64,000 nt of DNA from Aurantimicrobium sp. (lineage in GTDB: Bacteria; Actinomycetota; Actinomycetes; Actinomycetales; Microbacteriaceae). Positions within the stretch are counted from its first letter, which is position 1. Every line of letters begins with the position of its first letter. Below the pieces are notes generated by a model. That model searched no databases. It was not told the origin of the DNA and saw only the letters and a program-made list of their open reading frames with translations. This document shows positions 3,373 to 18,795 of this stretch, piece by piece. The stretch covers positions 6,099-70,098 of the forward strand of contig NZ_JAVWTF010000003.1 of NCBI RefSeq assembly GCF_036667855.1. Reading direction: 5' to 3'. The position numbers were made by a program, and so were the translations under genes.

Positions 3373-3446
3373 GGGGCTATAGCTCAGGTGGTTAGAGCGC
3401 TTCACTGATAATGAAGAGGTCCCAGGTTCAAGTCCTGGTAGCCCCA
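3373..3446 (+). tRNA. tRNA-Ile (anticodon GAT)
   Basis: Acceptor stem GGGGCTA/TAGCCCC, anticodon arm cttca-CTGATAA-tgaag, T-arm ggttcaagtcc; no encoded CCA. Confidence 0.93.
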
Positions 3447-3490
3447 CGCAATTGCTCTTTATATTTTGATGTAAAGTAGTAAAAGCAATC

Positions 3491-3563
3491 GGGGCCTTAG
3501 CTCAATTGGTAGAGCGCCTGCTTTGCAAGCAGGAGGTCAGGAGTTCGATTCTCCTAGGCTCCA
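3491..3563 (+). tRNA. tRNA-Ala (anticodon TGC)
   Basis: Acceptor stem GGGGCCT/AGGCTCC with G3:U70, anticodon arm cctgc-TTTGCAA-gcagg, T-arm gagttcgattctc; no encoded CCA. Confidence 0.93.
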
Positions 3564-3564
3564 C
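3555..3564 (+). repeat. attL core (taggctccac), last 9 nt of tRNA-Ala plus 1 nt
   Basis: Identical 10-mer recurs at 11430-11439. Confidence 0.75.
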
Positions 3565-3573
3565 TCCCCCCAG

Positions 3574-3599
3574 AAAAACCCCCAGAAATGGGGGTTTTT
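3574..3599 (+). terminator. Rho-independent terminator after tRNA-Ala
   Basis: aaaaaccccc-agaaat-gggggttttt perfect 10-bp stem with a T run. Confidence 0.8.
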
Positions 3600-3618
3600 C
3601 TTTACCCAAAACGCTTTG

Positions 3619-3665
3619 ATAGGCGTAATCTATTGGCGTAATTTTTACAGCTAAATAGGCGTACT
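3619..3665 (+). repeat. Three direct copies of the 11-bp motif AT[A/T]GGCGTA[A/C]T (putative integrase arm-type sites, left arm)
   Basis: ataggcgtaat 3619-3629, attggcgtaat 3632-3642, ataggcgtact 3655-3665; the same motif occurs twice at 11344-11367. Confidence 0.8.
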
Positions 3666-3686
3666 TTCCCAGCTTTCCGAGCTACT

Positions 3687-4973
3687 GTGAAAGCTATGGG
3701 GGAACAAAACAAGCCACGACGGGAAAAGGGAACAGGTGCTTTGTACCTGCGAACCCGCGAAATACCAGGCGAAAAGGACTATGAGTTCTATCAAGCCGTC
3801 CTCGAAGTGAAGACTGAAACAGGCAAACGCAAACGCATTACAGGCAACGGAGCAACAAAATCTCTTGCCCAAGCAAAGCTCCAAGCCAACATAAATAAGT
3901 TTTATCAACGAGAAGCAGAAGGCACCGTCGCAGTTAGGCGGAAGAAGTCTTCGGGCATGACCGTTGAGGAATGGTTAGACGCCTGGTACGAAAGCCTGCA
4001 ATATCGTCGTCTGTCTGAAACGGTGCGAAGAAAATATAAAGGTTTTTACGAACACCACATAGTTCCCCATGTCGGTGATACTCCGCTGGCGGATCTTCAC
4101 GAAGACCAGTTGGAAGAACTATTCGGTACAACGCTCGTAAATAAAAGAAAGAAAATTAACGGCGTTGAGAGCGACCAACCGTTGTTGGGCAACTCTGCTC
4201 GTCGAAACATTTACAAGACGCTGAACACCGCTCTGAAAAGAGCAGTTGATAAGGGTCTTATTTCACGCAACCCGCTTGCACTCGTTCAGGCACCTGAACT
4301 GAAACAAGACCCAGACGAGAATGTGCCCAGCTATGCACATATCGTCCTGTCTCTTATGAAGCGAATGAGGGAGGACAACTACCCAGACTATTGCCGCTTC
4401 TTCTTCATGCTGTTAGGTGTTCGTAAAGCTGAACGAGTAGCAATATCGCTGACGAACATTCGGGGTCTAAAAACAAAAAACCCCACGCTGGTTATTAGTC
4501 AGCAAATAGCCAGGCACGCTGACGGTTCAGGTTGGTACATAAAGCCAGCGACAAAGAACGGCAAAGACAGAATGCTTCCTTTGCCCGAGATATTTGTCGA
4601 AGCACTCAACGACTATCTAAAAGTTCGTACCGCTTGGACAAAATCTCCGAACTGGAAACCAAAGCGAGAGTTTGAGGATCTACTCTTCATTCATGAAGAC
4701 GGTTCTCCGATAACTCTGAACCAGGACAACACAGACTGGCACAAGCTCCTCGACCATTACGGCTACCCGTACTTCCGTAGCCACCTTGTTCGACATGTTG
4801 CTGCAACTGTTCTTGCAGACCAGGAACCACCCGTTCCGTTCCAAGTTATTCAGAACATGCTTGGAAACGGTGTCGCTATGACGCAGTACTACGCCCGCAT
4901 TTCAGCGAAGCAAATGAAGACGCCACTCACGGCATATGGCGAAACTATCGCTGACCGTGTAAAGAAAAAATAA
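3687..4973 (+). CDS. int: Tyrosine recombinase / phage-type integrase
   Basis: N-terminal SAM-like core-binding region; C-terminal catalytic signature HLVRHVAATVLA (HxxR) and MTQYYARIS (Tyr). Adjacent to the tRNA target. Start GTG 3687 or ATG 3696. Confidence 0.9.
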   Translation: MKAMGEQNKPRREKGTGALYLRTREIPGEKDYEFYQAVLEVKTETGKRKRITGNGATKSLAQAKLQANINKFYQREAEGTVAVRRKKSSGMTVEEWLDAWYESLQYRRLSETVRRKYKGFYEHHIVPHVGDTPLADLHEDQLEELFGTTLVNKRKKINGVESDQPLLGNSARRNIYKTLNTALKRAVDKGLISRNPLALVQAPELKQDPDENVPSYAHIVLSLMKRMREDNYPDYCRFFFMLLGVRKAERVAISLTNIRGLKTKNPTLVISQQIARHADGSGWYIKPATKNGKDRMLPLPEIFVEALNDYLKVRTAWTKSPNWKPKREFEDLLFIHEDGSPITLNQDNTDWHKLLDHYGYPYFRSHLVRHVAATVLADQEPPVPFQVIQNMLGNGVAMTQYYARISAKQMKTPLTAYGETIADRVKKK

Positions 4974-5070
4974 AAACTTTTCAGAAAATTCCTGAAACTC
5001 AAAAAACCAGCCGATAAGTATTTCGAGGTCAAAATATGACTTCTAAAAATACGAATGAAAGTTGGTTCTC

Positions 5071-5427
5071 ATGTCCATTAACTATGGCTATTACCTCCCT
5101 CTAAATGCAGCAGATATGTACAAAGAAGTTCGCTTCTTGGACATTTCTCCAAAGACTGACGGTGTTGGTGAGCTTGCTCGTCAAACCACAGACAACGAGG
5201 GAACACCCAAGTGGGTTGTCTCCACACTTGTGAAGTACAAAGACCTCCCACAACAAACAGAGACATTCACTCTCGTTGCTTCACAAGCTGACGCAGAAAA
5301 AATAAACCTCATAGCTGACCTGACACCTATTCGTCTCCTAAACCTTTTAGGTGGCAAATGGTCAAAGGCTGGTGCAGACAAGACTTCTTGGAGCTTCCAG
5401 ATTTCAGGCGTTGAGGTCGCAAAGTAA
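5071..5427 (+). CDS. Hypothetical protein (island ORFan, about 118 aa)
   Basis: Clean ORF co-directional with int; TAATG coupling to the next ORF. No motif I recognise. Start TTG 5062 or ATG 5071. Confidence 0.5.
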   Translation: MSINYGYYLPLNAADMYKEVRFLDISPKTDGVGELARQTTDNEGTPKWVVSTLVKYKDLPQQTETFTLVASQADAEKINLIADLTPIRLLNLLGGKWSKAGADKTSWSFQISGVEVAK

Positions 5428-5777
5428 TGTCCATGAGTACCGCCACCCTCAAAGGAGTTGTCTGGCGTTTGTGGTGTGAGTACTTCGAGCAACAAGAAGA
5501 TCTCATTCCACCGCTTGCATTCCTGAAACAGGGTGCGGGAGAAGACGGTTTTTTCGTCTCTTCCGTCTCTGACGCAGAGATAGACAAGTTTGTCGCTGCT
5601 ATGAGAGCTAACCCAGAGGTTGAGTTCCTAACCAGAAAAGACTGGGCATTAGACCCGTCAGTTTGGTTTGGTTGGTGGTCTGTCTTTTTGGCGAGGCCCA
5701 AAACCCACACTCTGAAAACTCCGCGAGTAAGGAACCAGATAAACAGTTCCTCTCGTGGAAAGCGTCGGGGAGAGTAA
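5427..5777 (+). CDS. Hypothetical protein (island ORFan, 116 aa)
   Basis: Start overlaps the previous stop (TAATG); followed by a terminator hairpin at 5809-5835. Confidence 0.5.
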   Translation: MSMSTATLKGVVWRLWCEYFEQQEDLIPPLAFLKQGAGEDGFFVSSVSDAEIDKFVAAMRANPEVEFLTRKDWALDPSVWFGWWSVFLARPKTHTLKTPRVRNQINSSSRGKRRGE

Positions 5778-5808
5778 GACCGACAAAAGAGAAAGGTACG
5801 ACATGAAC

Positions 5809-5835
5809 GGCGAGGGTCTAACCCTCGCCGTTTTT
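5809..5835 (+). terminator. Rho-independent terminator
   Basis: ggcgaggg-tctaa-ccctcgcc followed by gttttt. Confidence 0.75.
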
Positions 5836-5938
5836 GCGTTCTGGGAGTGAGCACCTGACCGAGTGAAAGCGGTGCGGCAACGAGGAAGGTGCGAGAAGGA
5901 AGAAAAGCAACACAAGAAGTTAGTTCTGAAACCCATTC

Positions 5939-6202
5939 GTGATACCTGCCGATAGAGCAGGTATGACGAACAACGAAAAGGACGCCAAAGAGCAGGGGCT
6001 TGTTATATGTGGCATAAGTGCTCGTGAAGATACAGATATTGGTTTTGCCTCGCCAAAAGAGATAGACCACGCTGTCAGACATATTCCTGAAAGGACAACA
6101 GAACCTGAACTTGGTGAAGATAGGTACTCAATAACTCTTTCGCCTGGCTCTGTGAAGGTTTCGAGAAAACTTGGTTCTCCTGCTCCAAAGTCTGAAAACT
6201 AA
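5939..6202 (+). CDS. Hypothetical 87-aa ORF, in frame with the downstream Rep ORF and separated from it by a single TAA
   Basis: 5939 and 6248 are in the same frame. The only stop between them is TAA 6200-6202, and no start codon occurs in 6203-6247. Confidence 0.4.
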   Translation: MIPADRAGMTNNEKDAKEQGLVICGISAREDTDIGFASPKEIDHAVRHIPERTTEPELGEDRYSITLSPGSVKVSRKLGSPAPKSEN

Positions 6203-6247
6203 CCGAAGACTTCGATAACCAAATGGACTAAACAGTCCAGGTCAAAC

Positions 6248-7150
6248 ATGGTGGCAGTCCTGGCGAGCTTGGACTACAACCCACTTTTTGAGTTTGGTTA
6301 TTCCACTCCTGCCATGCTCACGCTGACTTACCCGAAGTCATGGGAAGTCGTAGCCCCCACCGCAGCGGACACTAAACGCCATATGAGGCTGTTTCGTCAA
6401 AGGTATGAACGAATGTTTGATAGAAAACTTCGTGGTTGTTGGAAGCTGGAATGGCAAGCACGCTCTGCTCCGCACATACACATATTCTGTGTTCCTCCCG
6501 AGATCCCAGAATTTCGTATGTGGTTATCTACGACTTGGGCAGACATAGTTAACGCTCCCGACCCAGAGGAAAAGAAAAAGCACCTCAAAGCGGGTACAGG
6601 TATTGACTACGGCGAAGGCATAAGAGCTTCTGACCCCAAGAGGTTAGCTGTGTATTTCACAAAGCATGGTTCAGCAAACTTCGGAGATAAGGAATATCAG
6701 AACCAACCGCCTGACCTATGGGTGAATGACGGCTCCATAGGTCGCCTGTGGGGGTATTACGGACTTAAAGCAGCGTTAGCAACCGTAGAGGTCGATACGG
6801 CAGACGCTCTCTTCATAGCCCGCACTCTTCGACGGTGGCAAAAAGCCCAGTCAAAACCTCGAAGGGTCAAAGTCTGGCGAACAAACTCTAAAACTGGTGA
6901 AGTGAAGCCACGCTATGTAAAGCGTAAAAAGAAATACCTCAAAAAGCGTTCAGGGTTTATGTCGGTGAATGACGGCTCTGTAATGGGGGAGACATTAGCG
7001 AGAGCACTCGCCGCTCATAAAGGTGAAGAAGTTAGCGTGCGGTCAGCAGACCAAGCAGACGCTCTATCTCCGCAGACTTCTCCTCGACCCGAGCTTCCGC
7101 AACTGCCACTCGTTGTGAAAGAGCGTCTCTCTCGACTGTTAGGTCTTTGA
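6248..7150 (+). CDS. rep: Rolling-circle (HUH) replication initiator protein
   Basis: Motif 1 MLTLTYP, motif 2 PHIHIFCV (HUH), motif 3 AVYFTKHG (Tyr-x-x-K); basic C-terminus. True N-terminus possibly upstream (see findings). Confidence 0.7.
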   Translation: MVAVLASLDYNPLFEFGYSTPAMLTLTYPKSWEVVAPTAADTKRHMRLFRQRYERMFDRKLRGCWKLEWQARSAPHIHIFCVPPEIPEFRMWLSTTWADIVNAPDPEEKKKHLKAGTGIDYGEGIRASDPKRLAVYFTKHGSANFGDKEYQNQPPDLWVNDGSIGRLWGYYGLKAALATVEVDTADALFIARTLRRWQKAQSKPRRVKVWRTNSKTGEVKPRYVKRKKKYLKKRSGFMSVNDGSVMGETLARALAAHKGEEVSVRSADQADALSPQTSPRPELPQLPLVVKERLSRLLGL

Positions 7151-7442
7151 CCTGTTCAGCAAGCTCACGAATACGAAGCACAGAAGAACGCTCCTGGACT
7201 TGTTCAGAAGTGTTGCGGTTATCTACGGGAAGCTCTGGTGCGTCAGGACTTAACCAGCCCATAGTCAAGAGGGCAGATCTTGGAATACGCCATACTCTGC
7301 CCGAGCAGTCCGACCCAAGTCGGTCGAGCTCTTGCTTGTTGGGTTCGTAGCGGAACTTTGTTGCGGAATAGCCAGTCAAAGACATGGCTTCGGCTACTGA
7401 ATAGTAGGGACGCTCTACTTCGTTCTTGGGCAGATATTCCAT
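7032..7442 (-). CDS. Excisionase/MerR-like HTH DNA-binding protein with C-terminal coiled coil
   Basis: YYSVAEAMSLTGYSATKFRY...RVWRIPRSALL resembles the Xis/AlpA-type winged HTH. Heptad-rich tail. GGAGGA lies 8 nt upstream of ATG 7442. The 3' end overlaps rep by 119 nt. Confidence 0.6.
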   Translation of the reverse strand: MEYLPKNEVERPYYSVAEAMSLTGYSATKFRYEPNKQELDRLGSDCSGRVWRIPRSALLTMGWLSPDAPELPVDNRNTSEQVQERSSVLRIRELAEQVKDLTVERDALSQRVAVAEARVEEKSAEIERLLGLLTAR

Positions 7443-7607
7443 TTGTTGTTCCTCCATAAAACTATTTTTAGCATTTCTAAAACTTTTTGTCAATATAACT
7501 TGCCATATTTATTATTTTATGATATGATAATAATATAATAAAAACAAACCAGACAAAAGTTTGGCGGAAAACCTCAAATAGAGGAGAACAAAAAGTAAGG
7601 AAAACTA
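7443..7607. promoter_or_regulatory. Very AT-rich divergent promoter region of the island
   Basis: Lies between divergent genes. Contains ttgtca/ttgcca and tataat-like hexamers and the repeated run atgatatgataataatataat. Confidence 0.5.
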
Positions 7608-8120
7608 ATGTCCAAGAAAAACCGTATTAAGAACAAAGAAGCAAACTTGCAGAAGCGTATAAACGCTGCTTCTAACCGCAACGCTGCTGCTTCCACCCCC
7701 ATTTCAGCCGAAGAGGAAATGCGAGCTACTGCGGAAGCAGTTATGGCTCACAGGTCAGACCTTTCTGCCAAAGGGCCTATGCGGGTAGTTGCTAAAACCT
7801 GTGGAAATGGAGAGGGCTGTTCTCCAAGTTGTGAATACTGCGGACTTTTCACTCTCGGACTATTGACCACCCCCGAAGTTGCAGAAGAACTTTTCTCAAA
7901 GTTGGACTTGTCTGCTATTCGCAACTATGTAGCCGTCCATGAAGCCTCTGCCGAAGAGGCGACTATGGATCTCGAAAGAAGGGGTTTTCCTATGGACTAC
8001 TTGGACGGTCACTATCTTGTGTTTGTAAAAATGCTGTTCGCACACGAACACGCAAGCCACCGTCTCGAAGAGTTTAAAGAGCACTTTCTCGGTGCCAACG
8101 AAGAGAAAGTTGCTGCCTAA
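7608..8120 (+). CDS. Hypothetical protein, 170 aa, with Cys cluster CX5CX3CX2C
   Basis: Good RBS (aaggaaaactaATG). Cys motif CGNGEGCSPSCEYC. No family recognised. Confidence 0.55.
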   Translation: MSKKNRIKNKEANLQKRINAASNRNAAASTPISAEEEMRATAEAVMAHRSDLSAKGPMRVVAKTCGNGEGCSPSCEYCGLFTLGLLTTPEVAEELFSKLDLSAIRNYVAVHEASAEEATMDLERRGFPMDYLDGHYLVFVKMLFAHEHASHRLEEFKEHFLGANEEKVAA

Positions 8121-8374
8121 TGTTTGGGCCAGAGACTGTCGAACTATATGAAAACTCAACTGCTTATGGCGTTTGCGAAACAACTATCTCCGAAGGTTAT
8201 GTAGTTGTAGGGCGGTGGAATGGAAGTGCAACAGTAAATGTCTCTCTGAAAGACGGCGAAGTATTTACTTGTTTCACGAACTACGAAATGAAATCTCTCG
8301 AAGAGTTTAAGGACGCCTTTATAGATTTTGTTCTTGGAGAAATGTCCAAGAAGCGAACTTCTAATGACTTCTGA
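8120..8374 (+). CDS. Hypothetical protein, 84 aa
   Basis: TAATG translational coupling to the previous ORF. Confidence 0.5.
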   Translation: MFGPETVELYENSTAYGVCETTISEGYVVVGRWNGSATVNVSLKDGEVFTCFTNYEMKSLEEFKDAFIDFVLGEMSKKRTSNDF

Positions 8375-8470
8375 AATAACTCCAAACATGAGAGAACCGC
8401 AACGCTGCTGAATGGTACGAGGACGAAGAACAGTTCATGACAGAGCGTGAGCATTACTTAATATGCTGTT

Positions 8471-8514
8471 GTCCTGCGGAAGCAAGTTCTTAACAGGATC
8501 TGCTTCCGCAGGAC
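8471..8514. promoter_or_regulatory. Perfect 14-bp inverted repeat (16-nt spacer) upstream of the MmeI-like gene
   Basis: gtcctgcggaagca (8471-8484) pairs with tgcttccgcaggac (8501-8514); no T tract follows. Confidence 0.6.
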
Positions 8515-8557
8515 ATGCCTTCGGCTCGTGGTCCGTGCCCTCGACTATGTTCGATAT

Positions 8558-11353
8558 ATGGAAGAAACAGGGGACTATTCGGTACATGCCGCAAGGCAGT
8601 TCGCGGAGAAATACAAGACCGCAACTTCCGAAAAAAGCCTCGCACAGTCCTTTTGGCGGGACTTCTTTCACCTGGTTTTCGGTATTGACGACCTTCTCGG
8701 CTCGGGTATCGAGTTTGAGCACCCCGTCCGTTCAGCGAGTACTGGTCAGACGAACTTTATTGACGTTTTTTGGTCTGGGGTTGTTCTTATAGAACACAAG
8801 TCCGCAGGTAAAGACCTTGACCTTGCGGAAAAGCAAGCTCGGGACTACTTGGTTTCGCTTGCCCCAGTTGCCAGACCTCCTGCGTTGGTCATTTGCGACT
8901 TCGCTCACTTCCGTATCGTCGAGGTTCTCGCGGGACAAACTATTGAGTTCCCTCTTGCCGAACTTCCTGACCACCTTCACCGTTTCGCAAGCATTTTCGG
9001 AGATAAGGCAAACGCTGCTGCTCGCCCAGAAGTATCAGCTGACGCCAAAGCAGCGGAGCTCATGTCGGAGCTCTATGTGGAGTTCGAAAAAGCTGGCTAT
9101 ACGGGACACCAGGTTTCGGTCTTCCTTGTTCGTGTTTTATTTCTGAACTTTGGCGACGATACGCGAATGTGGAAGCGAATAGGTCATGGCCTCTTTGCAA
9201 CGGTTGTTGAGAACTCTCCCGAAAGCGGTTCGGGACTTGGTGCAACCATTCAGGAGCTCTTCCAGGTACTTGATACTCCGAAAGATACGCGTCCCAAGAC
9301 GCTGTCTGCTGAACTCGAAGACTTCCCATATGTGAATGGTGGGCTATTTACAGAGCAGTTGCCTGTTTTCTCATTTACTCCTGCCATGCGACTGTCTCTC
9401 CTCAACGCCGCTTATTACGACTGGTCAAAAATAAGTCCCGCTATTTTCGGATCTATGTTCCAGACGGTAAAAAGCAAGGAAGACCGCAGGGAACTCGGAG
9501 AGCACTACACGAGTGAAGCAAACATTCTTAAAGTTATTCGTCCCCTTTTCTTGGACGACTACTTGGACAAACTTCATAAAGCGTGGGACAACGCTGCTGC
9601 TCTCAAACGCCTTCGCCTGGAACTGGGGCAGGCGAACTATCTTGACCCCGCAGCTGGTTCTGGAAACTTCCTCGTCGTTTCATATAAACGCCTTCGAGAA
9701 ATAGAACTTAAAATCCTTGCTCGCCTTCACGAGCTCGAAAACACCTTCGGTCAGCTCCAACTTGACGGAAGTTTTGGCTTACAGGTCAGGCTTTCCCAGT
9801 TCCACGCTATTGAGTATGAGGAATGGTCTTCTCAAATAGCCAGAGTTGCCATGTTCTTGGCTGACCACCAAGCGAACCTTGCGTTGGAAGAAATAACAGG
9901 AGCAACTCCAAACCGCTTCCCGCTAACGGAGAGTGCGGTCATTCGTCATGGGAATGCTCTGACGACGGACTGGTCAGAAGTTTGTCCCATGAATGAGAAC
10001 ACTTTCATAATGGGCAACCCGCCGTTTTATGGTTCGTCGCTCCAAAATGCAGAGCAAAAGTCTGAAACCCAAGCAGTTTGGAAGGCTATTGCTGGTGCGG
10101 GCACTCTGGACTATGTCGCAAACTGGTTCTTACTTGCCGCCCAGCACTCGGCAAAGTCTGGTGCAAGAGCTGCCTTCGTTTCGACTAACTCAATAACGCA
10201 AGGAGAGCAGCCCGCAGTTATCTGGGGACAGCTGTACCCGCTTGGTGTAGGTATTGACTTCGCTCATAGAACTTTCGCTTGGGACAACGACGCCAGCGGC
10301 AAAGCAGCAGTCCATGTCGTCATAGTCGGGCTGTCTGCGAAGCCAAAACCGAACAAGCGTCCTTTGTGGGTTTATAAGTCCGTAAAAGACACTCCTGAAC
10401 TACTTAACGCCAGCAATATCAACGGCTATTTATTGGACGCTCCTAACATTTTGGTCAGCTCCCGCACAAACCCGCTTCGCCCTGAAACTCAAAAAATGGA
10501 GAAGGGCAACATTCCCACAGACGGTGGCTATCTCTCAAACATTTCCGCAGAGGAAGCGTTTGAGATCCGAAACACCGACCCTGTTGCCGCAAAGTATCTT
10601 CGCAGGCTTATTGGTGCTCGCGAGTTAATCCACAACGAGGAACGATACTGTTTGTGGCTTTTAGGTGCTGACCCGCAAGACTTAAGAACTTCTACGACTT
10701 TGGCTTCACGAATAAAAGAGGTTCGTCTTCTTCGTGAAGCCTCTCCAAAGAAAATGACGCAGAAGGACGCCAACCGTCCAGCGGAGTTCCAGGAAATCCG
10801 TCAGCCCAAAACTGACTACATAGTCGTACCGCTTCACTCTTCGGAGGACAGGGAGTATGTCCCTATCGGCAGAATGAGCCCAGAAGTTATTGTCAATAAT
10901 GCTGTGGCTATTGTTGCTGACGGCAGTCTGACAACTTTCGGGCTGCTCATGTCCAAACCCTTTAACGTTTGGAATAAAGCAGTTTCGGGAAGGCTCGAAA
11001 GTCGAGTTCGTATTAGCAACACCATTACTTATAACAACTTCCCTTTCCCAGAAATAACCGAAGCTAACCGTGAAAAAGTCGTGCAGGCTGCCCAAGCTGT
11101 ACTCGACGCAAGAGCGAAGTACCCCTCGAACTCTCTCGCTGACCTTTACAACCGCGACGGTATGCCTGGCGAACTTCGCCAAGCACACAACAAACTCGAC
11201 GCGGCTGTTCTGACTGTTTTAGGTCTAAAAGCTGACGCAAGTGAAGAGCGTATTCTTGCCAGGCTCTTTGAGCTCTATGACGAGCTCACTCGGGGTCTGC
11301 TTGACGCTCAACCAGTCAAGAAGACCCGCAAGAAGCCCGAGATATTGGCGTAA
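8558..11353 (+). CDS. MmeI-family type IIL (IIG) restriction-modification enzyme: fused endonuclease, N6A methyltransferase and target recognition domain
   Basis: Motif-by-motif resemblance to MmeI as I recall it. Examples: FIDVFWSGVVLIEHKSAGKDL (D-X9-EXK nuclease), FLVRVLFLNFGDDT, WSKISPAIFGSMFQ, LGEHYTSEANILKVIRPLF, LDPAAGSGNFLV (motif I), MGNPPFYG (motif IV), FVSTNSITQGEQ, FAHRTFAW, RYCLWL, GRLESRVRIS. Start ATG 8558 preferred over GTG 8528. Confidence 0.9.
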   Translation: MEETGDYSVHAARQFAEKYKTATSEKSLAQSFWRDFFHLVFGIDDLLGSGIEFEHPVRSASTGQTNFIDVFWSGVVLIEHKSAGKDLDLAEKQARDYLVSLAPVARPPALVICDFAHFRIVEVLAGQTIEFPLAELPDHLHRFASIFGDKANAAARPEVSADAKAAELMSELYVEFEKAGYTGHQVSVFLVRVLFLNFGDDTRMWKRIGHGLFATVVENSPESGSGLGATIQELFQVLDTPKDTRPKTLSAELEDFPYVNGGLFTEQLPVFSFTPAMRLSLLNAAYYDWSKISPAIFGSMFQTVKSKEDRRELGEHYTSEANILKVIRPLFLDDYLDKLHKAWDNAAALKRLRLELGQANYLDPAAGSGNFLVVSYKRLREIELKILARLHELENTFGQLQLDGSFGLQVRLSQFHAIEYEEWSSQIARVAMFLADHQANLALEEITGATPNRFPLTESAVIRHGNALTTDWSEVCPMNENTFIMGNPPFYGSSLQNAEQKSETQAVWKAIAGAGTLDYVANWFLLAAQHSAKSGARAAFVSTNSITQGEQPAVIWGQLYPLGVGIDFAHRTFAWDNDASGKAAVHVVIVGLSAKPKPNKRPLWVYKSVKDTPELLNASNINGYLLDAPNILVSSRTNPLRPETQKMEKGNIPTDGGYLSNISAEEAFEIRNTDPVAAKYLRRLIGARELIHNEERYCLWLLGADPQDLRTSTTLASRIKEVRLLREASPKKMTQKDANRPAEFQEIRQPKTDYIVVPLHSSEDREYVPIGRMSPEVIVNNAVAIVADGSLTTFGLLMSKPFNVWNKAVSGRLESRVRISNTITYNNFPFPEITEANREKVVQAAQAVLDARAKYPSNSLADLYNRDGMPGELRQAHNKLDAAVLTVLGLKADASEERILARLFELYDELTRGLLDAQPVKKTRKKPEILA

Positions 11354-11367
11354 TAAATAGGCGTAAT
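11344..11367 (+). repeat. Two further copies of the 11-bp arm-type motif (right arm)
   Basis: attggcgtaat 11344-11354 (spans the MmeI-like stop codon) and ataggcgtaat 11357-11367, in the same orientation as the left-arm copies. Confidence 0.8.
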
Positions 11368-11414
11368 ATGACAAACTCAACCCTACTTCCTTTGTTTTAG
11401 GCGGTATCAGGGTA

Positions 11415-11439
11415 AGAGTTGGATTTAGATAGGCTCCAC
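11415..11439 (+). repeat. attR: degenerate copy of the tRNA-Ala 3' end ending in the core taggctccac
   Basis: 19/25 identity to 3540-3564; the last 10 nt are identical. Confidence 0.75.
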
Positions 11440-11445
11440 AACAAG

Positions 11446-11479
11446 AAACACCCGCCAGAAATGGCGGGTGTTTTGTTTT
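11446..11479. terminator. Bidirectional rho-independent terminator
   Basis: aaacacccgcc-agaaat-ggcgggtgttt followed by tgtttt; lies between convergent genes. Near-identical copy at 16507-16544. Confidence 0.8.
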
Positions 11480-11485
11480 CAAGCC

Positions 11486-12244
11486 TTACAAGTCTTCGAT
11501 TTTTGCGCTGATGACTAGTTTGTCAATGTATGCATCAAGCAATGTTGAACTTTGAACCATCTTCTCCTTCGAGGTGATGTCCCCTTGACCGCCAGCAGCG
11601 CCGGTCATCCACAGGGTTGGACCAACAAGAGCCCATTGAAGCCGGGCTGCAGTGGGCATTATGTCTTTGAGTTCTCCCTCAAGAAGCGCAACTGGAAGGT
11701 CAGAAATCTCCAGAGTGAAGGGGCTCATGTTGCCAGTTCGAAAATCCCTGATCAAAACCGCGGATACAGCGACGCCATAGGCAACGGCATCGGCAAGACG
11801 CTCTGGGAATTTTTCAGCAAGGATACGTTCAACGTTTTCTGAAACGTGGGGAAGGTGTGCAAGCCCAATGACGGAGCCATACGTTACTGCACGTTGAACC
11901 TGTGCCTTGATTACTGCTCGAAATCGCTCTTCAGGGTCGCTGTATTCCTGGCTGAGTGCTTGTCGAATACAGTCAATCCAGATGTCGTGTGCCTTGACGA
12001 ATACTTCAGCAAGCAATCCGTCGAAAGAGCCAAAGTGGTAGGTAACCAGCGAATAGTCAACGCCCAGAAGATCACACAAAGATCGCGCGTTGACGTCAAG
12101 AATTCCTCTACGAGAAATTTCAGACATCGCAAGGGCTACTAGCTTTCCCCGATTGTCTGAGTTTTCATCCAGCCCATATAGTGCCCAAAACTGCGCATCG
12201 AGGGGCGCAGAGGCTGTAGCTGAATTCTTTTTTGTTCTACTCAT
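11486..12244 (-). CDS. TetR/AcrR-family transcriptional regulator
   Basis: N-terminal HTH LVALAMSEISRRGILDVNARSLCDLLGVDYSLVTYHFGSFDGLL with an all-helical C-terminal part. Confidence 0.8.
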   Translation of the reverse strand: MSRTKKNSATASAPLDAQFWALYGLDENSDNRGKLVALAMSEISRRGILDVNARSLCDLLGVDYSLVTYHFGSFDGLLAEVFVKAHDIWIDCIRQALSQEYSDPEERFRAVIKAQVQRAVTYGSVIGLAHLPHVSENVERILAEKFPERLADAVAYGVAVSAVLIRDFRTGNMSPFTLEISDLPVALLEGELKDIMPTAARLQWALVGPTLWMTGAAGGQGDITSKEKMVQSSTLLDAYIDKLVISAKIEDL

Positions 12245-12314
12245 AAAATCACTTCCCCCGCATTTAGATTACTTGGGTTTTGAAGTAATAAACGCCTGAA
12301 ATTATGCGGAAAAA

Positions 12315-12338
12315 GACTCTATTCCATAGAATAGAGTC
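12315..12338. promoter_or_regulatory. Perfect 10-4-10 palindrome, candidate TetR operator
   Basis: gactctattc-cata-gaatagagtc in the divergent tetR/surface-protein intergenic region. A second small palindrome acgcaa-a-ttgcgt lies about 12388-12400. Confidence 0.6.
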
Positions 12339-12418
12339 GCTCATTTTGGTTTGCTGTATCCCCCTTGTTTTTCAACGCTTTTGAGCTACGCAAATTGCGT
12401 CAACAGGAGTAGATAAAA

Positions 12419-15400
12419 ATGAAAGTGCGGAAAATCAAACGCACATCAGCGATGACAAAGAAGCTATATTCACTCATAGCAGTGGTTGCACTGATTATCA
12501 GTACCTTCGCACTTGAGGTGACCCCAAGCCCAGCTTCAGCTGCTGATTATGAAGCATCTCTTAACACAGCTACCCCACTGACTGGATATAGTGTCAGCTC
12601 GTCAATCACGGGAAATGTTCGGGTTCTCATTAGAAGCAGCAATTCATCAGGCAGTCTCTCTGTTACTAGCTATGCAGGCCTTGTGGGAATCAGAAACACA
12701 ATCAACTACACAACGACCTCAGGTAATCAAACTTTAGGAACTGCAGCACAAATGATTGGCCTTGTTGGAACAGCGTCAAACATTAACACTGCCTTATCAA
12801 CATTGCAATACATTTCCCCAACACCAGGGACCGACACTATTACAATGTGGGTCTCTAACGGTTCTGAGTACATTCCAATCGTCAACGGAAACAATGTTGA
12901 ATTTCACTACTATTCGGCACAGACAAATGCCCTATCAGTCCCTGCTGCAAGGACAGCTGCTGCTGCAGTAGGGCAGATTGACGGTCAGCCCGCAACCACC
13001 TTTTTGGCGACGTTGAGATATTCCTTCGAGGACCTTTACGGAATGCAATTAGTGGCAGCACAAAACCTTCAAACTTGGATTAGCGCAGAGGATGTTGTTG
13101 AAGGTGTTTGGAAATGGGTTGGACCAGATGCTGATGGTGTCCAATTTTGGAGCGGGGATTCAAATGGCGCAGCTGTAAATGGCGAATATTGGAACTGGCA
13201 ACGAACGGCACCCAATACAGGGCTTATTAAGCCCGCGACTTCCACCATACGAAACTGCGCGATGCTTCTTGGGAACAACACTTGGGGACTGGTCCGGAGG
13301 GCTGATGGTGGCGGATGGTATGGATGGCACGATGGCCAGTGCCCTACTGGTAATTCATGGCTATTAGAAGCAATGACCTTTGATAAACCTGCGGGGCAAA
13401 ATACAAATGTTTCGGCTGCTCTGTATTCAATGACTCCCTTAGTGAAAACGGTTGTCGTTGCTACCCCACCCGATCAGCCAAACGCACTCAATGCAATTGC
13501 AAATTCAAGTGGTGACGTTGAACTCTCGTGGAGTGCACCAATAAACACAGGCTCAGATCCGCTAACCGATTACAAAGTTCAGTACTCGCAGTCATCCACT
13601 TTTGCTTCAGGTATTACTACCTGGAGCCACACTGCATCCACACAGACTTCGGCGACGATTACAGGACTAACAGCAGGAACAACTTATTACTTCCGCGTAG
13701 CTGCAGTGTCGACAATGACCGGTGCCTACAGTTCATCAAGTACCCTTACGCTTCCTCGTCTCCCGAGTGCACCTCAGTCACTAACCGTTACGCCCACTGA
13801 CCAGACCATTGATCTTTCTTGGACTGCTCCTAGCGACAACGGTGGCTCAACAATTACCGGCTACAAGGTCGAGTACAAAGCATCCTCTTCAGGAACGTGG
13901 ATCACCGCTAGTTCTAATGTTGTTGGAACGAGTTATCAGCTCACCTCGCTGACGAATGGAACAAACTACGACGTACGAGTCAGTGCGACAAATGGTTTCT
14001 GGGGAGCTCTCGCAACATCGAACGCCAACATGCCCTTCGGTGCAGTTTCGAATACCTCTGTTCCAACAGTTGGTGGCGCAAATGCTGCAGGTGAAATTCT
14101 CACTGGATCTGATGGAAGCTGGGATACAAACGGTTCTGCAGTTACAAGTACTACCTACCAATGGCAGTCTCGCTCGAATCCTTCGGACTCTTGGTCAAAC
14201 ATTTCTGGCGCGAACAGCTCAACTTATGTTCTAACCAGCAATGACGTAGGAAAGTACCTCAGACTTCAGGTATCCAAGACGAACGGTGCAAACAGCAACG
14301 CTTATATAACTGCATCTAGTTCCACAACCTCTGTAATTCAGACTGGTCTTGCATCAACACCAGGCAGCCTGAGTGCTGTTTATGGAAACCAATCAGCACA
14401 GGTGTCGTGGACTATCCCAGCAAGCAATGGTGGAACTATTTCCGGATTCCGAGTTGAGTACTCGACTGATGGAGATAACTGGACTTTGAGCCAACTTGTT
14501 TCTGCATCTGCAACTTCTCACACCATTACTGGCCTTACCAACGGAACAAGCTACTTTGTTCGCGTGACTGGTGTCACTGCTGCAGGTAATGGTGCATATG
14601 CCATCTCTGGCGATGCAGTTATTCCTGCGACTACTCCAACTAACACCTCAGTACCTACGGTGAGTGGCCAAAGCTCTTATGGTTCTGTGCTTTCAGCAAG
14701 TGCGGGCTCTTGGAACGCCAACGGTCGAGCTTTGGGTGCCGCGAACTACCAGTGGCAGTACTCAACAGATTCCGGATCAACCTGGAACGATTTGGTTGGT
14801 GAAACTAGTGATCAGCTCACTATCAACGGCAACATCGGTGCACTTCTTCGTATAAAGGTAACTCGTTCAAACGCAGTCGGCGCAACGATTGGCTATTCAA
14901 CTGCCACAACAGCTGTTACTGCATCGCCAGCCACAGGCCCACAGAGCGTTTCTGTAGTTCCTGGCGATCAAGGACTCACCGTAACTTGGTCAGCCCCCTC
15001 CAACACCGGTGGTGTTTCACTTACTGACTACCAAATCCAATATTCAACTGATGCTGTCACGTGGAACACGGTTTCAAGAACCGCATCGCTCACGACCAGC
15101 CAGCAGATCTCAAGCTTGACTAATGGAACAAGCTACTACGTACGAGTTCGTGCGTTGAATGGATTGAATGGTGCTTGGGCATTCTCAGGAACAACACAAG
15201 CTCCTCGCGGGTTGCCCATCGTTGTGACCGCTCCAACAATTTCAGGCACCAGTTCGTATCAGCAATTGCTCACCACAAACATCGGGACATGGAACAGTAA
15301 CGGCGCATCCATCACGAACACCACGTACCAGTGGCAGAGCTCCGTAGATGGAAACACATGGGTGGACATTGCTGGTGCTACGACAAACGAGTACCGAGTC

Positions 15401-16504: not shown

Positions 16505-16506
16505 TT

Positions 16507-16544
16507 GAAACTCCCGCCAGGAATGGCGGGTGTTTTCTTCTTTT
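16507..16544 (+). terminator. Rho-independent terminator, 31/36 identical to the one at 11445-11480
   Basis: gaaactcccgcc-aggaat-ggcgggtgtttt followed by cttctttt. Confidence 0.8.
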
Positions 16545-16600
16545 CCAACTCTTGTCGCTATTTGATTAATGTGCAAGATTGTAGTCGGGGGCATATTGAA

Positions 16601-17059
16601 ATGATTACGGAATATCGCTCTATTGAGCAGGATAGAAATTTCTGGAGAGGGCTCTCCGAAATTTTTATGGCTTTTGGAAAATTTCTTGCACGCTACAAAG
16701 GCCAATTTGGTTTGCTTCTTTTGTTCTTGTCATTGTCATTCTTTATGCCCATATTCATGGGGGTATTTTTCGTGGCGATCGGGGCCCTAGTTTCAAGAGC
16801 ATTATTTGACCAGGGAAGAACGGAACTGAGCCTTAAGAAGTTAATGTTTATTGGGGGAAGCCTCGTTGTTTTAGCTTTCACAATTTGGGCGCTCATATAT
16901 TTCACACCCTCCCTCAACACCGACTGGGAAACTGATGGGCCATATGACGGCCTGATCATTGCGATGATGGGGATTGCGTTTATTGCAGTTCTTTTGTTTT
17001 TGCCATTGGTTGGGTACTTGGCAGATCGCTATTTCCGAACGAAATCTACAAAGAATTAG
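16601..17059 (+). CDS. Hypothetical multi-pass membrane protein
   Basis: Several hydrophobic helices. The ORF-track start 16505 would include the terminator hairpin, so the ATG at 16601 is preferred. Confidence 0.5.
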   Translation: MITEYRSIEQDRNFWRGLSEIFMAFGKFLARYKGQFGLLLLFLSLSFFMPIFMGVFFVAIGALVSRALFDQGRTELSLKKLMFIGGSLVVLAFTIWALIYFTPSLNTDWETDGPYDGLIIAMMGIAFIAVLLFLPLVGYLADRYFRTKSTKN

Positions 17060-17425
17060 CTACTTCTTGGGCCGCAATGACCTGTAGTCCCAGATGATCT
17101 CTGTGCAAAGCCTGAGATAACGACGAAGGTCATCGATATCAACGTCAATGATTTCGTTGTAGGTAATACCGGCAGCACGGTGCTTTCCCATCCCTAGTAG
17201 CCCAGGTTCCCCGAAGTCTTTACCGCTCCAGAACAACACCTTCACACCGTCTTTGTGATCCTGATATCCCACGACAGGAATGTCATCTAAGAACCAGACA
17301 GGTGCACCATGCCACACCTTGTATTCGGCGGTCGGTAGAGCCTGGAGAAACTCTTGGAACAGGAACTCAATCATGGACCTGTTGGGTCCTTGAACGTTGA
17401 AGTTGTAATCCAGAACGCTGTTCAT
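17060..17425 (-). CDS. DUF1801 (YdhG-like) domain protein
   Basis: KVWHGAPVWFLDDIPVVGYQDHKDGVKVLFWSG pattern typical of DUF1801. Confidence 0.55.
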   Translation of the reverse strand: MNSVLDYNFNVQGPNRSMIEFLFQEFLQALPTAEYKVWHGAPVWFLDDIPVVGYQDHKDGVKVLFWSGKDFGEPGLLGMGKHRAAGITYNEIIDVDIDDLRRYLRLCTEIIWDYRSLRPKK

Positions 17426-17449
17426 AGCTTCAGACTACGCTTGTCATCA

Positions 17450-17656
17450 ATGATTAACATGAGCCCACGAATAGCAAAGATTCTTCACTTGTCACTCCTT
17501 GCGGTTGCAGGAGTATTGATTGCGATACAGATTTTCCAGATTGTCTCGGGCTCCAAAGTGGATCAGGTGATTGCCTGGGCGGCAATTATCTTGATTCTTC
17601 TCGATCTCTTTATTTCGCGGATGAATTCCACAAAGTCCAAACAATCTGAGGACTAA
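17450..17656 (+). CDS. Small membrane protein (2 TM)
   Basis: Two hydrophobic helices. ATG 17450 avoids overlap with the convergent upstream gene. Confidence 0.4.
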   Translation: MINMSPRIAKILHLSLLAVAGVLIAIQIFQIVSGSKVDQVIAWAAIILILLDLFISRMNSTKSKQSED

Positions 17657-17922: not shown

Positions 17923-17945
17923 TTACGATTCGCTATATTTTGTAT

Positions 17946-18792: not shown

Positions 18793-18795
18793 GAA

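What the first reader, a model, noticed from the sequence alone, without database searches (positions are those of the whole stretch)
3555..11439. Compact 7.9-kb integrative element in tRNA-Ala with readable att sites
**Visible ends.**
- attL: the core taggctccac forms the end of the intact tRNA-Ala (3555-3564).
- attR: the same 10-mer closes a 19/25 degenerate copy of the tRNA T-arm and acceptor end (11415-11439).
- Each end is followed by a hairpin terminator with the same AGAAAT loop.

**Content.**
- Inside are an integrase, an HUH Rep, an Xis-like gene, four ORFans and one large defence gene.
- There is no FtsK/Tra-type transfer gene and there are no capsid or morphogenesis genes.

**Interpretation.** It is smaller than typical actinomycete integrative conjugative elements. 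Its layout (int, regulators, rep, cargo) resembles phage-satellite or mobilisable islands, which are poorly described in this group of actinobacteria.
Basis: partly seen in the sequence, partly recalled or inferred. Interest (0 to 1): 0.65.

Follow-up and report, generated by a model that had tools for sequence, protein, structure and literature searches.

The report
Small integrated rolling-circle plasmid carrying restriction enzyme
A 7.9-kb mobile element sits in a tRNA-Ala gene of a freshwater Aurantimicrobium; it belongs to a previously unnamed family of tiny integrating, self-replicating elements that have no transfer genes and always carry a restriction-modification system.

Summary
A 7,875-bp insertion (3565-11439) lies at the 3' end of tRNA-Ala(UGC). 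The 10-bp core TAGGCTCCAC occurs only at its two ends, and conspecific contigs carry the exact empty site.

- The "Xis-like" ORF (5939-6202) is the N-terminus of the HUH Rep. In this copy a 3-bp deletion creates an in-frame stop; the intact protein is 396 aa.
- That ORF also holds a 14-nt motif, GGGCTTGTTATATG, which is nearly invariant across this Rep family and is probably the nick site.
- Two "ORFans" are conserved core genes. One models as an SSB-like OB fold.
- A minus-strand gene with a weak HTH match was missed.
- The defence gene is a complete MmeI-type IIL/IIG enzyme.

The Rep belongs to the pSAM2 RepSA family of actinomycete conjugative elements. A clade of at least 7 distinct 5.7-7.9-kb Microbacteriaceae/Micrococcales elements shares int, SSB-like, orf116 and rep. 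Those with both ends readable also share arm repeats, and all carry restriction or methylase cargo. None has an FtsK-type Tra.

It is best read as a tra-less derivative of these conjugative elements: an integrative rolling-circle plasmid that needs help to transfer. No evidence supports a phage satellite.

The parts
3491..3564 (+). tRNA-Ala(UGC), the integration target. It stays intact because the element re-supplies its 3' end.
   Evidence: ARAGORN. The same tRNA is found in the empty site of L001.
3555..3564 (+). attL core TAGGCTCCAC, the crossover region
   Evidence: Only two copies in the window, 0.08 expected. The empty-site junction falls here.
3572..3601 (+). Element-borne hairpin plus T-run that replaces the host terminator behind tRNA-Ala
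   Evidence: Perfect 13-nt arms (I25); -21.3 kcal/mol. L012 has a different hairpin at the same place.
3619..3664 (+). P' arm: three direct arm-type sites AT(A/T)GGCGTAAT at 3619-3629 and 3632-3642, and ATAGGCGTAC at 3655-3664. These are candidate integrase arm-binding sites.
   Evidence: GGCGTAAT has 6 hits in the window against 0.75 expected, and 4 of them flank the element. Relatives have paired repeats of different sequence in equivalent positions near both ends.
3696..4973 (+). int, a tyrosine recombinase of 425 aa (the ORF opens at GTG 3687)
   Evidence: Pfam Phage_integrase 1.8e-13 plus Phage_int_SAM_3. PHROG 1 integrase 5e-37. Window vs L004: 81 synonymous and 40 non-synonymous codon changes.
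5071..5427 (+). orf118, a conserved core gene. It is predicted to be an OB-fold, SSB-like protein that binds single-stranded DNA.
   Evidence: 42 homologue clusters, named ones from Microbacteriaceae. AF2 pLDDT 84.8. Foldseek top 50 almost all SSB/PriB, E 3e-3 to 5e-2, TM 0.34-0.49. 33 synonymous vs 2 non-synonymous changes.
5427..5777 (+). orf116, a conserved core gene of unknown function. It sits between orf118 and rep wherever an orf118 homologue was detected.
   Evidence: BLASTP 1e-13 to 1e-25 to the gene in the same position in L013, L109, L110, L113, L115 and L117, and weaker to L014. No Pfam, PHROG, PADLOC or PDB match. The single-sequence model is unusable, pLDDT 46.
5805..5834 (+). 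Strong hairpin plus T-run about 130 bp upstream of rep. It is a terminator or attenuator, or possibly a single-strand origin.
   Evidence: -27.6 kcal/mol. By inspection of the sequences printed, a GC-rich hairpin lies at a similar position upstream of rep in most relatives examined; it was not folded or scored there.
5946..5955 (+). CTGCCGATAG box directly before the rep start codon. It is specific to this clade and is a candidate Rep-binding or translational control site.
   Evidence: Present, with small variations, upstream of rep in every clade member examined and not at that position in the distant relatives.
5963..7150 (+). rep, an HUH rolling-circle initiator of the RepSA (pSAM2) family. 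It is interrupted here by a stop at 6200-6202, created by a 3-bp deletion. The intact form is 396 aa.
   Evidence: Comparison with the 99.94% identical L002: AAC TAT AAA becomes AAC TAA. Pfam REP_ORF2-G2P. 7 of 22 aligned relatives also hit PF20199 RepSA. Motifs LTLTYP, PHIHIF and VYFTKH are invariant.
5996..6009 (+). GGGCTTGTTATATG, the probable double-strand-origin nick site, lying inside the rep 5' coding region (codons G-L-V-I-C)
   Evidence: A 12-nt core of it (GGCTTGT[T/C]ATAT) is present in 71 of 96 Rep-bearing loci, in 64 distinct contexts, at 56-72% G+C. It resembles the pC194-family nick site CTTGAT, the family in which pSAM2 is placed (PMC2440964).
7032..7442 (-). orf136r, a minus-strand gene with a weak HTH_17-like N-terminus and a C-terminal half read as a possible coiled coil. 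It is a candidate excisionase (RDF) or regulator. It overlaps the 3' end of rep convergently.
   Evidence: HTH_17 E 0.014, below the Pfam cut-off. 41 synonymous vs 9 non-synonymous changes, with 43 of 61 differences at third codon positions, against L004. Called as a gene in L004, L009 and L012.
7443..7607 (.). AT-rich divergent control region between orf136r and orf170
   Evidence: Five promoter-like hits on both strands. AT-rich palindrome at 7508-7542 (I24).
7608..8374 (+). orf170 (7608-8120) and orf84 (8120-8374), variable genes of unknown function upstream of the RM gene
   Evidence: No family hits. In L004, orf170 is replaced after its first 18 codons and orf84 is 54% identical.
8528..11353 (+). 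MmeI-family type IIL/IIG restriction-modification enzyme of 941 aa, the cargo
   Evidence: All five MmeI Pfam domains. PADLOC REase_MTase_IIG 1014.8 bits. Full-length match to MmeI structure 5HR4, E 1.4e-212, with the D...ExK stretch, DPAxGxGNFL and NPPF aligned.
11344..11367 (+). P arm: two direct arm-type sites, ATTGGCGTAAT and ATAGGCGTAAT. The first overlaps the mmeI stop codon.
   Evidence: D2.
11415..11439 (+). attR: a degenerate copy of the tRNA T-arm and acceptor end (19 of 25) ending in the core TAGGCTCCAC (11430-11439)
   Evidence: D7.
11445..11473 (.). Host terminator hairpin that follows tRNA-Ala in empty sites. It is not part of the element.
   Evidence: The identical sequence follows the tRNA in L001; -23.0 kcal/mol.

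Best explanation
This is an integrated, plasmid-like mobile element derived from the pSAM2/AICE lineage that has no conjugation gene. It is a member of a distinct clade of 5.7-7.9-kb [quoted passage not shown] elements in Microbacteriaceae and Micrococcales.

**Shown.**
- It is a precise 7,875-bp insertion in the 3' end of tRNA-Ala, with an empty site in conspecifics.
- Its gene set is under purifying selection.
- It shares its architecture with relatives that sit in tRNA-Ala or tRNA-Ser sites.

**Inferred mechanism.**
- The tyrosine integrase binds the 10-bp core and the five AT(A/T)GGCGTAAT arm sites. It recombines attP with the tRNA end. The element restores the tRNA 3' end and supplies a new terminator.
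- Excision, perhaps helped by the minus-strand HTH-like protein, gives a 7.9-kb circle.
- Rep nicks at GGGCTTGTTATATG inside its own gene and drives rolling-circle replication.
- The OB-fold protein coats the displaced strand.
- The MmeI-type enzyme protects the host from phage and favours retention of the element. Its specificity domain is exchanged between otherwise near-identical copies.
- Cell-to-cell transfer is not encoded, so it must depend on a helper (phage or conjugative element) or on uptake of free DNA.

**This copy.** rep carries a premature stop, so this copy is probably unable to replicate, although int and the att sites look intact.
For: **Insertion and att sites.** Exact empty site. 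Unique core repeat. Arm-site pairs at both ends here, and pairs of different sequence in equivalent positions in L013, L014, L113/114 and L115/116.

**Rep.**
- HUH motifs and RepSA relatives.
- Distant relatives sit beside FtsK-type Tra, Nudix and GntR genes, as in pSAM2-type elements.
- A nearly invariant 14-nt motif lies inside rep.
- pSAM2 replicates by rolling circle, and its replication is needed for transfer (PMC2440964).

**Other genes.** SSB-like fold for orf118. Conserved orf116.

**No Tra.** An HMM built from TraSA-like genes hits 20 distant loci and no gene inside any of the 12 clade loci, which represent about 7 distinct elements. No virion genes.

**RM cargo in every member read**.

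**Selection and variation.** Purifying selection on the backbone. Domain-specific divergence of MmeI. In the 23 conspecific contigs read, empty sites far outnumber occupied ones.
Against: - No circular attP junction or replicating form was observed. The only collections that could be scanned for it do not hold this element at all.
- The SSB assignment rests on a fold match of moderate strength (TM 0.34-0.49) with no sequence support.
- The nick site is inferred from conservation and from resemblance to CTTGAT, not from an assay.
- The RDF assignment rests on a sub-threshold HTH_17 hit.
- orf116, orf170 and orf84 are unexplained, and one of them could be an unrecognised transfer or packaging function.
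- The stop in rep could be an assembly error.
Confidence: 0.72

Rival explanations
1. It is a phage satellite. The element is induced by a helper phage. Its rolling-circle concatemers are packaged into helper capsids, and the RM gene acts as interference or defence cargo.
For: - Small size; int plus replication plus defence layout; no transfer genes.
- Marine virion-encapsidated elements without capsid genes were detected as concatemers consistent with rolling-circle replication, and some carry RM genes (PMC9618062).
- Three genes remain unexplained.
Against: - No terminase, pac/cos, capsid-remodelling or AlpA-type gene in Pfam or PHROGs.
- Only 20 distant Rep relatives in IMG/VR, none from this clade.
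- No attP junction in IMG/VR.
- The Rep lineage is that of conjugative actinomycete plasmids and AICEs.
Confidence: 0.13
2. It is a decayed AICE remnant. On this view it was once a conjugative element that lost tra and is now an immobile genomic island kept only for its RM gene.
For: - Elements lacking tra or rep have been called AICE remnants or mobilizable integrating elements (PMC3218068).
- This copy has a broken rep.
Against: - The same tra-less design recurs in about 7 distinct elements, with Rep identity down to 44% and integrases only 31-53% identical. They sit in tRNA-Ala and tRNA-Ser and have intact cores and matched arm sites.
- Backbone genes are under purifying selection.
- The site is empty in most conspecifics, and three variants occupy it.
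- The rep lesion is a single 3-bp change, absent from the other near-identical copies in which that position is readable (L002, L012).
Confidence: 0.1
3. It is an integrated filamentous or other single-stranded-DNA phage. The Rep hits the G2P/ORF2 Pfam family and an OB-fold single-strand-binding protein is encoded, as in inoviruses.
For: Pfam REP_ORF2-G2P. SSB-like OB fold next to rep.
Against: - No Zot/pI-type morphogenesis ATPase and no coat-like small membrane proteins were recognised.
- No PHROG hit for any gene except int, mmeI and a marginal match of unknown function for orf136r (E 0.0038).
- The conserved core is only four genes.
Confidence: 0.03

Closest known systems
AICEs of the pSAM2 type (actinomycete integrative and conjugative elements; te Poele 2008 PMC2440964, Ghinet 2011 PMC3218068)
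   Same: - A tyrosine integrase next to att sites in the 3' end of a tRNA gene.
- A RepSA-family rolling-circle initiator.
- A pC194-like nick motif.
- The same modular layout.
- An actinobacterial host.
   Different: - No FtsK/SpoIIIE Tra, spd, Nudix (pif) or GntR (korSA) genes.
- Size 5.7-7.9 kb, against 10.9 kb or more for the characterised AICEs named in the review (pSAM2, SLP1, pMEA300).
- It encodes its own SSB-like protein and a conserved orf116.
- The cargo is an RM system or methyltransferase in every member read.
Integrative and mobilizable elements (IMEs) / hitcher genetic elements (PMC5704250, PMC11389934)
   Same: It has its own integration and excision module and no mating apparatus. 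It presumably depends on a helper.
   Different: IMEs are defined by an oriT, with or without a relaxase, used by a type IV secretion system. Neither an oriT nor a helper is identified here. Most actinomycete conjugation instead uses a double-stranded-DNA translocase.
pC194-family rolling-circle plasmids
   Same: An HUH Rep with a single YxxK tyrosine motif. A nick motif of the CTTG/ATA type. A single-stranded intermediate is expected.
   Different: This element is chromosomally integrated through its own integrase. The nick motif lies inside the rep coding sequence.
Virion-encapsidated integrative mobile elements and minimalist phage satellites (PMC9618062)
   Same: Small elements without capsid genes. 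Rolling-circle-type replication. Some carry RM cargo.
   Different: No evidence of encapsidation and no packaging gene. A different Rep lineage.
MmeI (type IIL RM enzyme, PDB 5HR4)
   Same: Full-length collinear homologue with the nuclease, helical spacer, gamma-class N6-adenine methyltransferase, TRD and C-terminal domains.
   Different: It is carried on a mobile element. The TRD differs between element copies (69.6% and 57.5% identity), which suggests different recognition sequences.

Membership tests
AICE | Site-specific recombinase gene adjacent to an att site; element flanked by direct repeats, usually at a tRNA 3' end | tested here: met
   int at 3696-4973 lies beside attL. The core repeat and the empty site are shown.
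AICE | Replication gene of RepSA, RepAM or Prim-Pol type | tested here: met
   The Rep is homologous to proteins that hit PF20199 RepSA. It is interrupted in this copy.
AICE | FtsK/SpoIIIE-domain Tra translocase | tested here: not met
   No Pfam hit in any ORF. A TraSA-like HMM finds 20 distant loci but nothing inside the 12 clade loci.
Integrative mobilizable element | Integration and excision module without a mating-pair or translocation apparatus | tested here: met
Integrative mobilizable element | oriT and/or relaxase recognised by a helper conjugative element; demonstrated mobilisation | not testable with these tools
   The HUH Rep and its nick site could in principle serve as relaxase and oriT. 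No helper is known.
Phage satellite (PICI, P4, PLE and similar) | Genes for hijacking helper packaging or capsid (TerS, capsid-size, head-tail adaptor, Psu/Sid-like) | tested here: not met
   PHROGs gives no hit for any gene except int, mmeI and a marginal match of unknown function for orf136r. Three ORFs remain unassigned.
Phage satellite (PICI, P4, PLE and similar) | Presence in virions; induction by a helper phage | tested here: inconclusive
   No clade member and no attP junction in IMG/VR. No virome from the source habitat was available.
HUH rolling-circle Rep (pC194-type) | Motif I, the HUH metal-binding motif and a catalytic Tyr motif (YxxK) | tested here: met
   LTLTYP, H172-I-H174 and Y232-F-T-K235 are invariant in 22 sequences.
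HUH rolling-circle Rep (pC194-type) | Conserved nick site at the double-strand origin | tested here: inconclusive
   GGGCTTGTTATATG is conserved at the DNA level and resembles CTTGAT. Nicking was not assayed.
Inovirus-type prophage | Zot/pI morphogenesis ATPase and small coat proteins | tested here: not met
   No such Pfam or PHROG hits.
MmeI-family type IIL/IIG RM enzyme | A single polypeptide with an N-terminal D...ExK nuclease, N6-adenine methyltransferase motifs I and IV (NPPF), and a TRD | tested here: met
   Five Pfam MmeI domains. Alignment to 5HR4 shows FIDVFWSGVVLIEHKS, DPAAGSGNFL and GNPPFYG. PADLOC.
Bacterial SSB/PriB OB-fold proteins (for orf118) | Five-stranded OB barrel with a helix between strands 3 and 4; binding of single-stranded DNA | tested here: inconclusive
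   The fold is predicted at pLDDT 84.8 and matches SSB/PriB chains. There is no sequence-level link, and binding is untested.

The most novel reading that the evidence does not exclude
These elements are a dedicated, self-replicating vehicle for restriction-modification genes in genome-streamlined freshwater Actinobacteria. They would spread without any conjugation gene. The route would be SSB-coated single-stranded circles or rolling-circle concatemers that are taken up directly or packaged by phages or vesicles. orf116 would then be a new accessory factor for that route.
Probability: 0.25. Interest if true: 0.75.

Novelty: new variant of a known kind. Interest (0 to 1): 0.5.

Why it matters
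**A stable minimal lineage.** The AICE replication and integration chassis exists as a stable, minimal, tra-less lineage rather than only as decayed remnants. It occurs in tiny-genome planktonic Actinobacteria, here Aurantimicrobium with a 1.6-Mb assembly.

**A route for defence genes.** The clade gives a concrete route by which defence genes move and diversify in these populations. In every member read the cargo is a restriction system or a methyltransferase. Near-identical backbones carry MmeI enzymes with different specificity domains.

**A testable origin.** The 14-nt motif conserved inside rep across the RepSA family gives a directly testable origin and nick site for a whole family of actinomycete elements.

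**A possible tool.** The compact int/att/rep module could serve as a genetic tool for organisms that currently lack one.

Tried and rejected
- **attP junction search.** An exact junction pattern was searched in JGI metagenomes and IMG/VR and gave no hits. The attR control also gave none, so the collection simply lacks this element and the result is uninformative.
- **Circular-form check.** The 7,950-bp Logan contig L012 looked like a possible circular form. It is an integrated copy cut at both flanks, with no terminal overlap.
- **orf116.**
  - The word-indexed homologue search found only one near-identical protein.
  - The single-sequence model has pLDDT 46 and was not used.
  - A profile search against PDB sequences gave nothing.
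- **orf118.** A profile search against 1.84 billion representatives found 23 clusters, none of which can be linked to SSB by sequence.
- **Broken Rep elsewhere.** An exact look-up of the truncated 300-aa product found no other contig with the same lesion.
- **CTTGATA as nick site.** One copy lies inside mmeI (window 9269) and is not conserved, so it was rejected in favour of the family-wide motif.
- **orf67 (7147-7350).** It was rejected as a gene. Identity to L004 is 74%, with near-equal synonymous and non-synonymous changes, whereas the opposite-strand orf136r is clearly constrained.
- **orf251 (5327-6082, minus strand).** It was not treated as a gene, because it overlaps the conserved plus-strand genes.
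- **Literature.** No open-access paper was found that describes this clade or the motif.

Full report
**1. The observation**

ARAGORN places tRNA-Ile at 3373-3447 and tRNA-Ala(UGC) at 3491-3564. They lie behind gyrA and a DUF3566 gene. This is the usual origin-proximal block dnaA-dnaN-recF-DciA-gyrB-gyrA of Actinobacteria (gene maps).

The 10-mer TAGGCTCCAC occurs only at 3555-3564 and 11430-11439. The expected count is 0.08, and 0 of 100 shuffles reached two. The right copy closes a degenerate copy of the tRNA T-arm and acceptor end, 19 of 25 by reading and 31 nt at 74%.

Both ends are followed by strong hairpins with an AGAAAT centre (-21.3 and -23.0 kcal/mol). The right hairpin is the host's own tRNA terminator, because it follows the tRNA in empty sites. 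The left hairpin belongs to the element and replaces it. A nearly identical element (L012) has a different hairpin there. The shared loop is therefore not a conserved feature.

**2. Empty and occupied sites**

An exact-protein look-up of the DUF3566 gene returned conspecific contigs whose flanks are 97-98% identical.
- In L001 and L005 the tRNA is followed directly by ...TAGGCTCCAC|AACAAGAAACACCCGCCAGAAATGGCGGG... This is the window's left flank joined to its right flank without a base gained or lost. The insertion is therefore 3565-11439, 7,875 bp.
- Of the 23 contigs read, the two empty arrangements stand for 10 and 7 places. Occupied sites are few: L002, L004 and L006.
- The occupied sites hold three variants. 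L002 is 99.94% identical. L012 is 96-100% identical except in the cargo. L004 is about 85-90% identical in the backbone.
- The left flank is 87.5% identical in DNA to Aurantimicrobium minutum, and GyrA is 97% identical. The host is therefore an Aurantimicrobium-like member of the Microbacteriaceae.

**3. Genes**

| Gene | Coordinates | Finding |
|---|---|---|
| int | 3696-4973 (+) | Tyrosine recombinase |
| orf118 | 5071-5427 (+) | SSB-like OB fold (predicted) |
| orf116 | 5427-5777 (+) | Conserved, function unknown |
| rep | 5963-7150 (+) | HUH Rep, interrupted at 6200-6202 |
| orf136r | 7032-7442 (-) | Weak HTH_17 match; candidate excisionase or regulator |
| orf170, orf84 | 7608-8374 (+) | Variable, no match |
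| mmeI | 8528-11353 (+) | Complete MmeI homologue |

In L002 and L004 they form one 396-aa gene. The window differs from L002 by a 3-bp deletion that turns AAC-TAT-AAA into AAC-TAA. The N-terminal 80 residues are conserved in all 22 aligned relatives. So are the HUH motifs LTLTYP, PHIHIF and VYFTKH. A restart at Met97 would lose the invariant W89, S93 and R94, so this copy's Rep is probably inactive.

*orf118.* It has 42 homologue clusters, and the named ones come from Microbacteriaceae. The model has pLDDT 84.8. Its best PDB matches are almost exclusively SSB and PriB OB folds (E 3e-3 to 5e-2, TM 0.34-0.49). A full profile search found only 23 clusters, so the family is narrow.

*orf116.* It has no detectable family. 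A homologue nevertheless sits between orf118 and rep in most relatives examined.

*orf136r.* Against L004 it shows 41 synonymous and 9 non-synonymous changes. Its HTH_17 match is sub-threshold (E 0.014). It is the only candidate excisionase or regulator.

*orf170 and orf84.* These are variable and unmatched.

*The cargo.* The gene at 8528-11353 is a complete MmeI homologue. It has five Pfam domains and E 1.4e-212 to PDB 5HR4, with the nuclease and methyltransferase motifs aligned. PADLOC classifies it as type IIG.

**4. att architecture**

GGCGTAAT occurs six times in the window against 0.75 expected. Four of the copies lie as 13-bp-spaced pairs just inside each end (3622, 3635, 11347, 11360). 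A fifth, related site lies at 3655-3664.

Relatives show the same layout with different words:

| Locus | Arm word (two copies at each end) |
|---|---|
| L013 | GGCTTAA |
| L014 | TGCGTATC |
| L113/114 | GTTGCTTAAAA |
| L115/116 | GGCGTAGT |

This is the pattern expected of arm-type binding sites that co-vary with their integrases. The integrases are only 31-53% identical to the window's.

**5. The family**

The Rep has 336 detectable relatives in the protein collection. Seven of 22 aligned members also hit Pfam RepSA, the pSAM2 initiator.

In GTDB genomes the profile finds 142 stretches that encode a relative. Most are in Mycobacteriaceae, Streptomyces and small actinomycete plasmids. One of these plasmids (L082) has an FtsK/SpoIIIE gene directly upstream of rep, plus Nudix and ParA genes. 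Another (L017) has a GntR regulator. These are the classical pSAM2/AICE modules described in PMC2440964 and PMC3218068.

An HMM built from those Tra genes hits 20 distant loci. It hits no gene inside any of the 12 clade loci. The single weak L113 hit is an ABC ATPase outside the element.

The clade itself has Rep 44-54% identical to the window's. All members have int followed by rep and cargo, and in all but L014 an orf118-like and an orf116-like gene were identified between int and rep (in L014 only a weak orf116-like reading frame).

| Locus | Host or source | Site | Size | Cargo |
|---|---|---|---|---|
| L013 | Microbacteriaceae MAG | Same gyrA/tRNA-Ala site | 5.68 kb | NotI-like nuclease + m5C methylase |
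| L014 | Micrococcales MAG | tRNA-Ser | 6.8 kb | HNH + m5C methylase |
| L109 | A. minutum | Same tRNA-Ala site | Cut by the record end | Cut by the record end |
| L113/114 | MAG GCA_947454255.1 / ENA metagenome | 17-bp tRNA-like core repeat | 5.67 kb | N4/N6 methylase + unknown |
| L115/116 | Metagenome | tRNA-Ser | About 6.8 kb | Dam-like methylase fusion |
| L117 | Metagenome | Not determined | Not determined | MmeI-like |

Every member that could be read carries restriction or methylase cargo.

**6. Origin**

The 14-mer GGGCTTGTTATATG lies at 5996-6009, inside the 5' end of rep (codons G-L-V-I-C). Its 12-nt core is present in 71 of 96 Rep-bearing loci. These give 64 distinct sequence contexts, in DNA of 56-72% G+C. 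Proteins 35-50% identical would not keep those codons by chance in such DNA, so the constraint is on the DNA itself.

The motif resembles the CTTGAT nick site of the pC194 family, to which pSAM2 is assigned (PMC2440964). I read it as the double-strand-origin nick site.

Two further features lie upstream of rep. A CTGCCGATAG box sits directly before the rep start codon throughout the clade. By inspection, a GC-rich hairpin lies about 100-130 bp upstream of rep in most members.

**7. Cargo dynamics**

Between the window and L012 the backbone is 96-100% identical. Nucleotide identity falls to 62-73% across 10000-11250 and returns to 95% at the P arm.
- At protein level against L012, the MmeI N-terminal domain is 98.8% identical and the TRD 69.6%.
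- Against L004 the TRD is 57.5% identical.

This is recombinational replacement of the specificity region inside a fixed vehicle.

**8. What it is and how it probably works**

The data fit an integrative rolling-circle plasmid derived from the AICE lineage that lacks conjugation genes.
- Shown: the precise insertion, the empty site, the gene homologies, the family architecture and purifying selection.
- Inferred: Int-mediated recombination using the core and arm sites; excision aided by orf136r; Rep nicking at the conserved motif; coating of the displaced strand by orf118; retention and host benefit through the RM enzyme.
- Not encoded: transfer between cells. A helper phage, a helper conjugative element or free-DNA uptake are all possible, and no data here discriminate among them.

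The satellite idea has no positive support. There are no packaging genes, no clade member in IMG/VR and no attP junction there. It is not excluded, because capsid-gene-free rolling-circle elements are known from virions (PMC9618062). The remnant idea is contradicted at family level but may describe this particular copy, whose rep is broken.

**9. Novelty and verdict**

I found no open-access description of this clade, of its RM-only cargo or of the conserved motif. [quoted passage not shown]

I rate it a new variant of a known kind, of moderate interest. The finding is real and well delimited. The mechanism of integration and replication is conventional. The transfer route and two or three genes remain open.

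Noticed in passing
window 5124-5152 and 8334-8362: A perfect 29-nt inverted repeat. One arm lies inside orf118 (codons KEVRFLDISPK) and the other in the last codons of orf84. It is present in the window, L002 and L012 but absent from L004, whose orf84 homologue has a different C-terminus. Chance is negligible. It could be a recombination scar or a long-range pairing element in the transcript or in the single-stranded replication intermediate.
   Followed up: partly
window 8470-8515: A 15-bp perfect inverted repeat (-34.3 kcal/mol when folded with its flanks) lies 13 bp upstream of the mmeI start and has no T-run. It is a possible control element for expression of the restriction enzyme.
   Followed up: no
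window 10000-11250 (mmeI 3' half), compared with L012 and L004: The MmeI gene is mosaic. Near-identical backbones carry target-recognition domains only 57-70% identical, which implies swapping of specificity between element copies.
   Followed up: partly
window 11486-19000: The region right of attR also has low G+C (0.43-0.50) and is itself variable. It holds a 252-aa TetR-like gene, a 1,361-aa fn3/F5_F8-type surface protein, and a nucleotidyltransferase/HepT toxin-antitoxin pair (17940-18792). Conspecific L003 lacks the first two genes. No att-like repeat bounds the region.
   Followed up: partly
L013-L108 (Rep-bearing loci); window 5996-6009: GGGCTTGTTATATG, followed by GTGCCAAAAGTGTCCGC-like sequence, is nearly invariant at the DNA level inside the 5' end of RepSA-family rep genes. 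It holds from DNA of about 50% to 72% G+C, including Mycobacterium, Streptomyces and plasmids.
   Followed up: yes
L082 (Sphaerimonospora plasmid NZ_CP192058.1); also L020, L047, L075: The 14.1-kb plasmid record L082 consists of two copies of a 7.07-kb unit (FtsK-type Tra, Rep, Nudix, ParA). In L020, L047 and L075 either the Tra-like ORF or the Rep nick motif appears twice, about 7-10 kb apart. These look like small circular replicons assembled as dimers or with terminal overlaps.
   Followed up: no
L001 5537-7460: In this empty-site metagenome scaffold the gyrB gene is called only as a 115-aa C-terminal fragment, preceded by two 122-aa minus-strand ORFs. The other conspecific contigs have an intact 657-aa gyrB. 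This may be an assembly problem or an insertion.
   Followed up: no
L059 (Leucobacter MAG) 9359-19301: A more distant Rep relative lies about 6 kb from an MmeI-like 902-aa gene (35% identical) and a Schlafen/AlbA_2-domain gene. This suggests the same Rep lineage carries defence genes in larger islands too.
   Followed up: no
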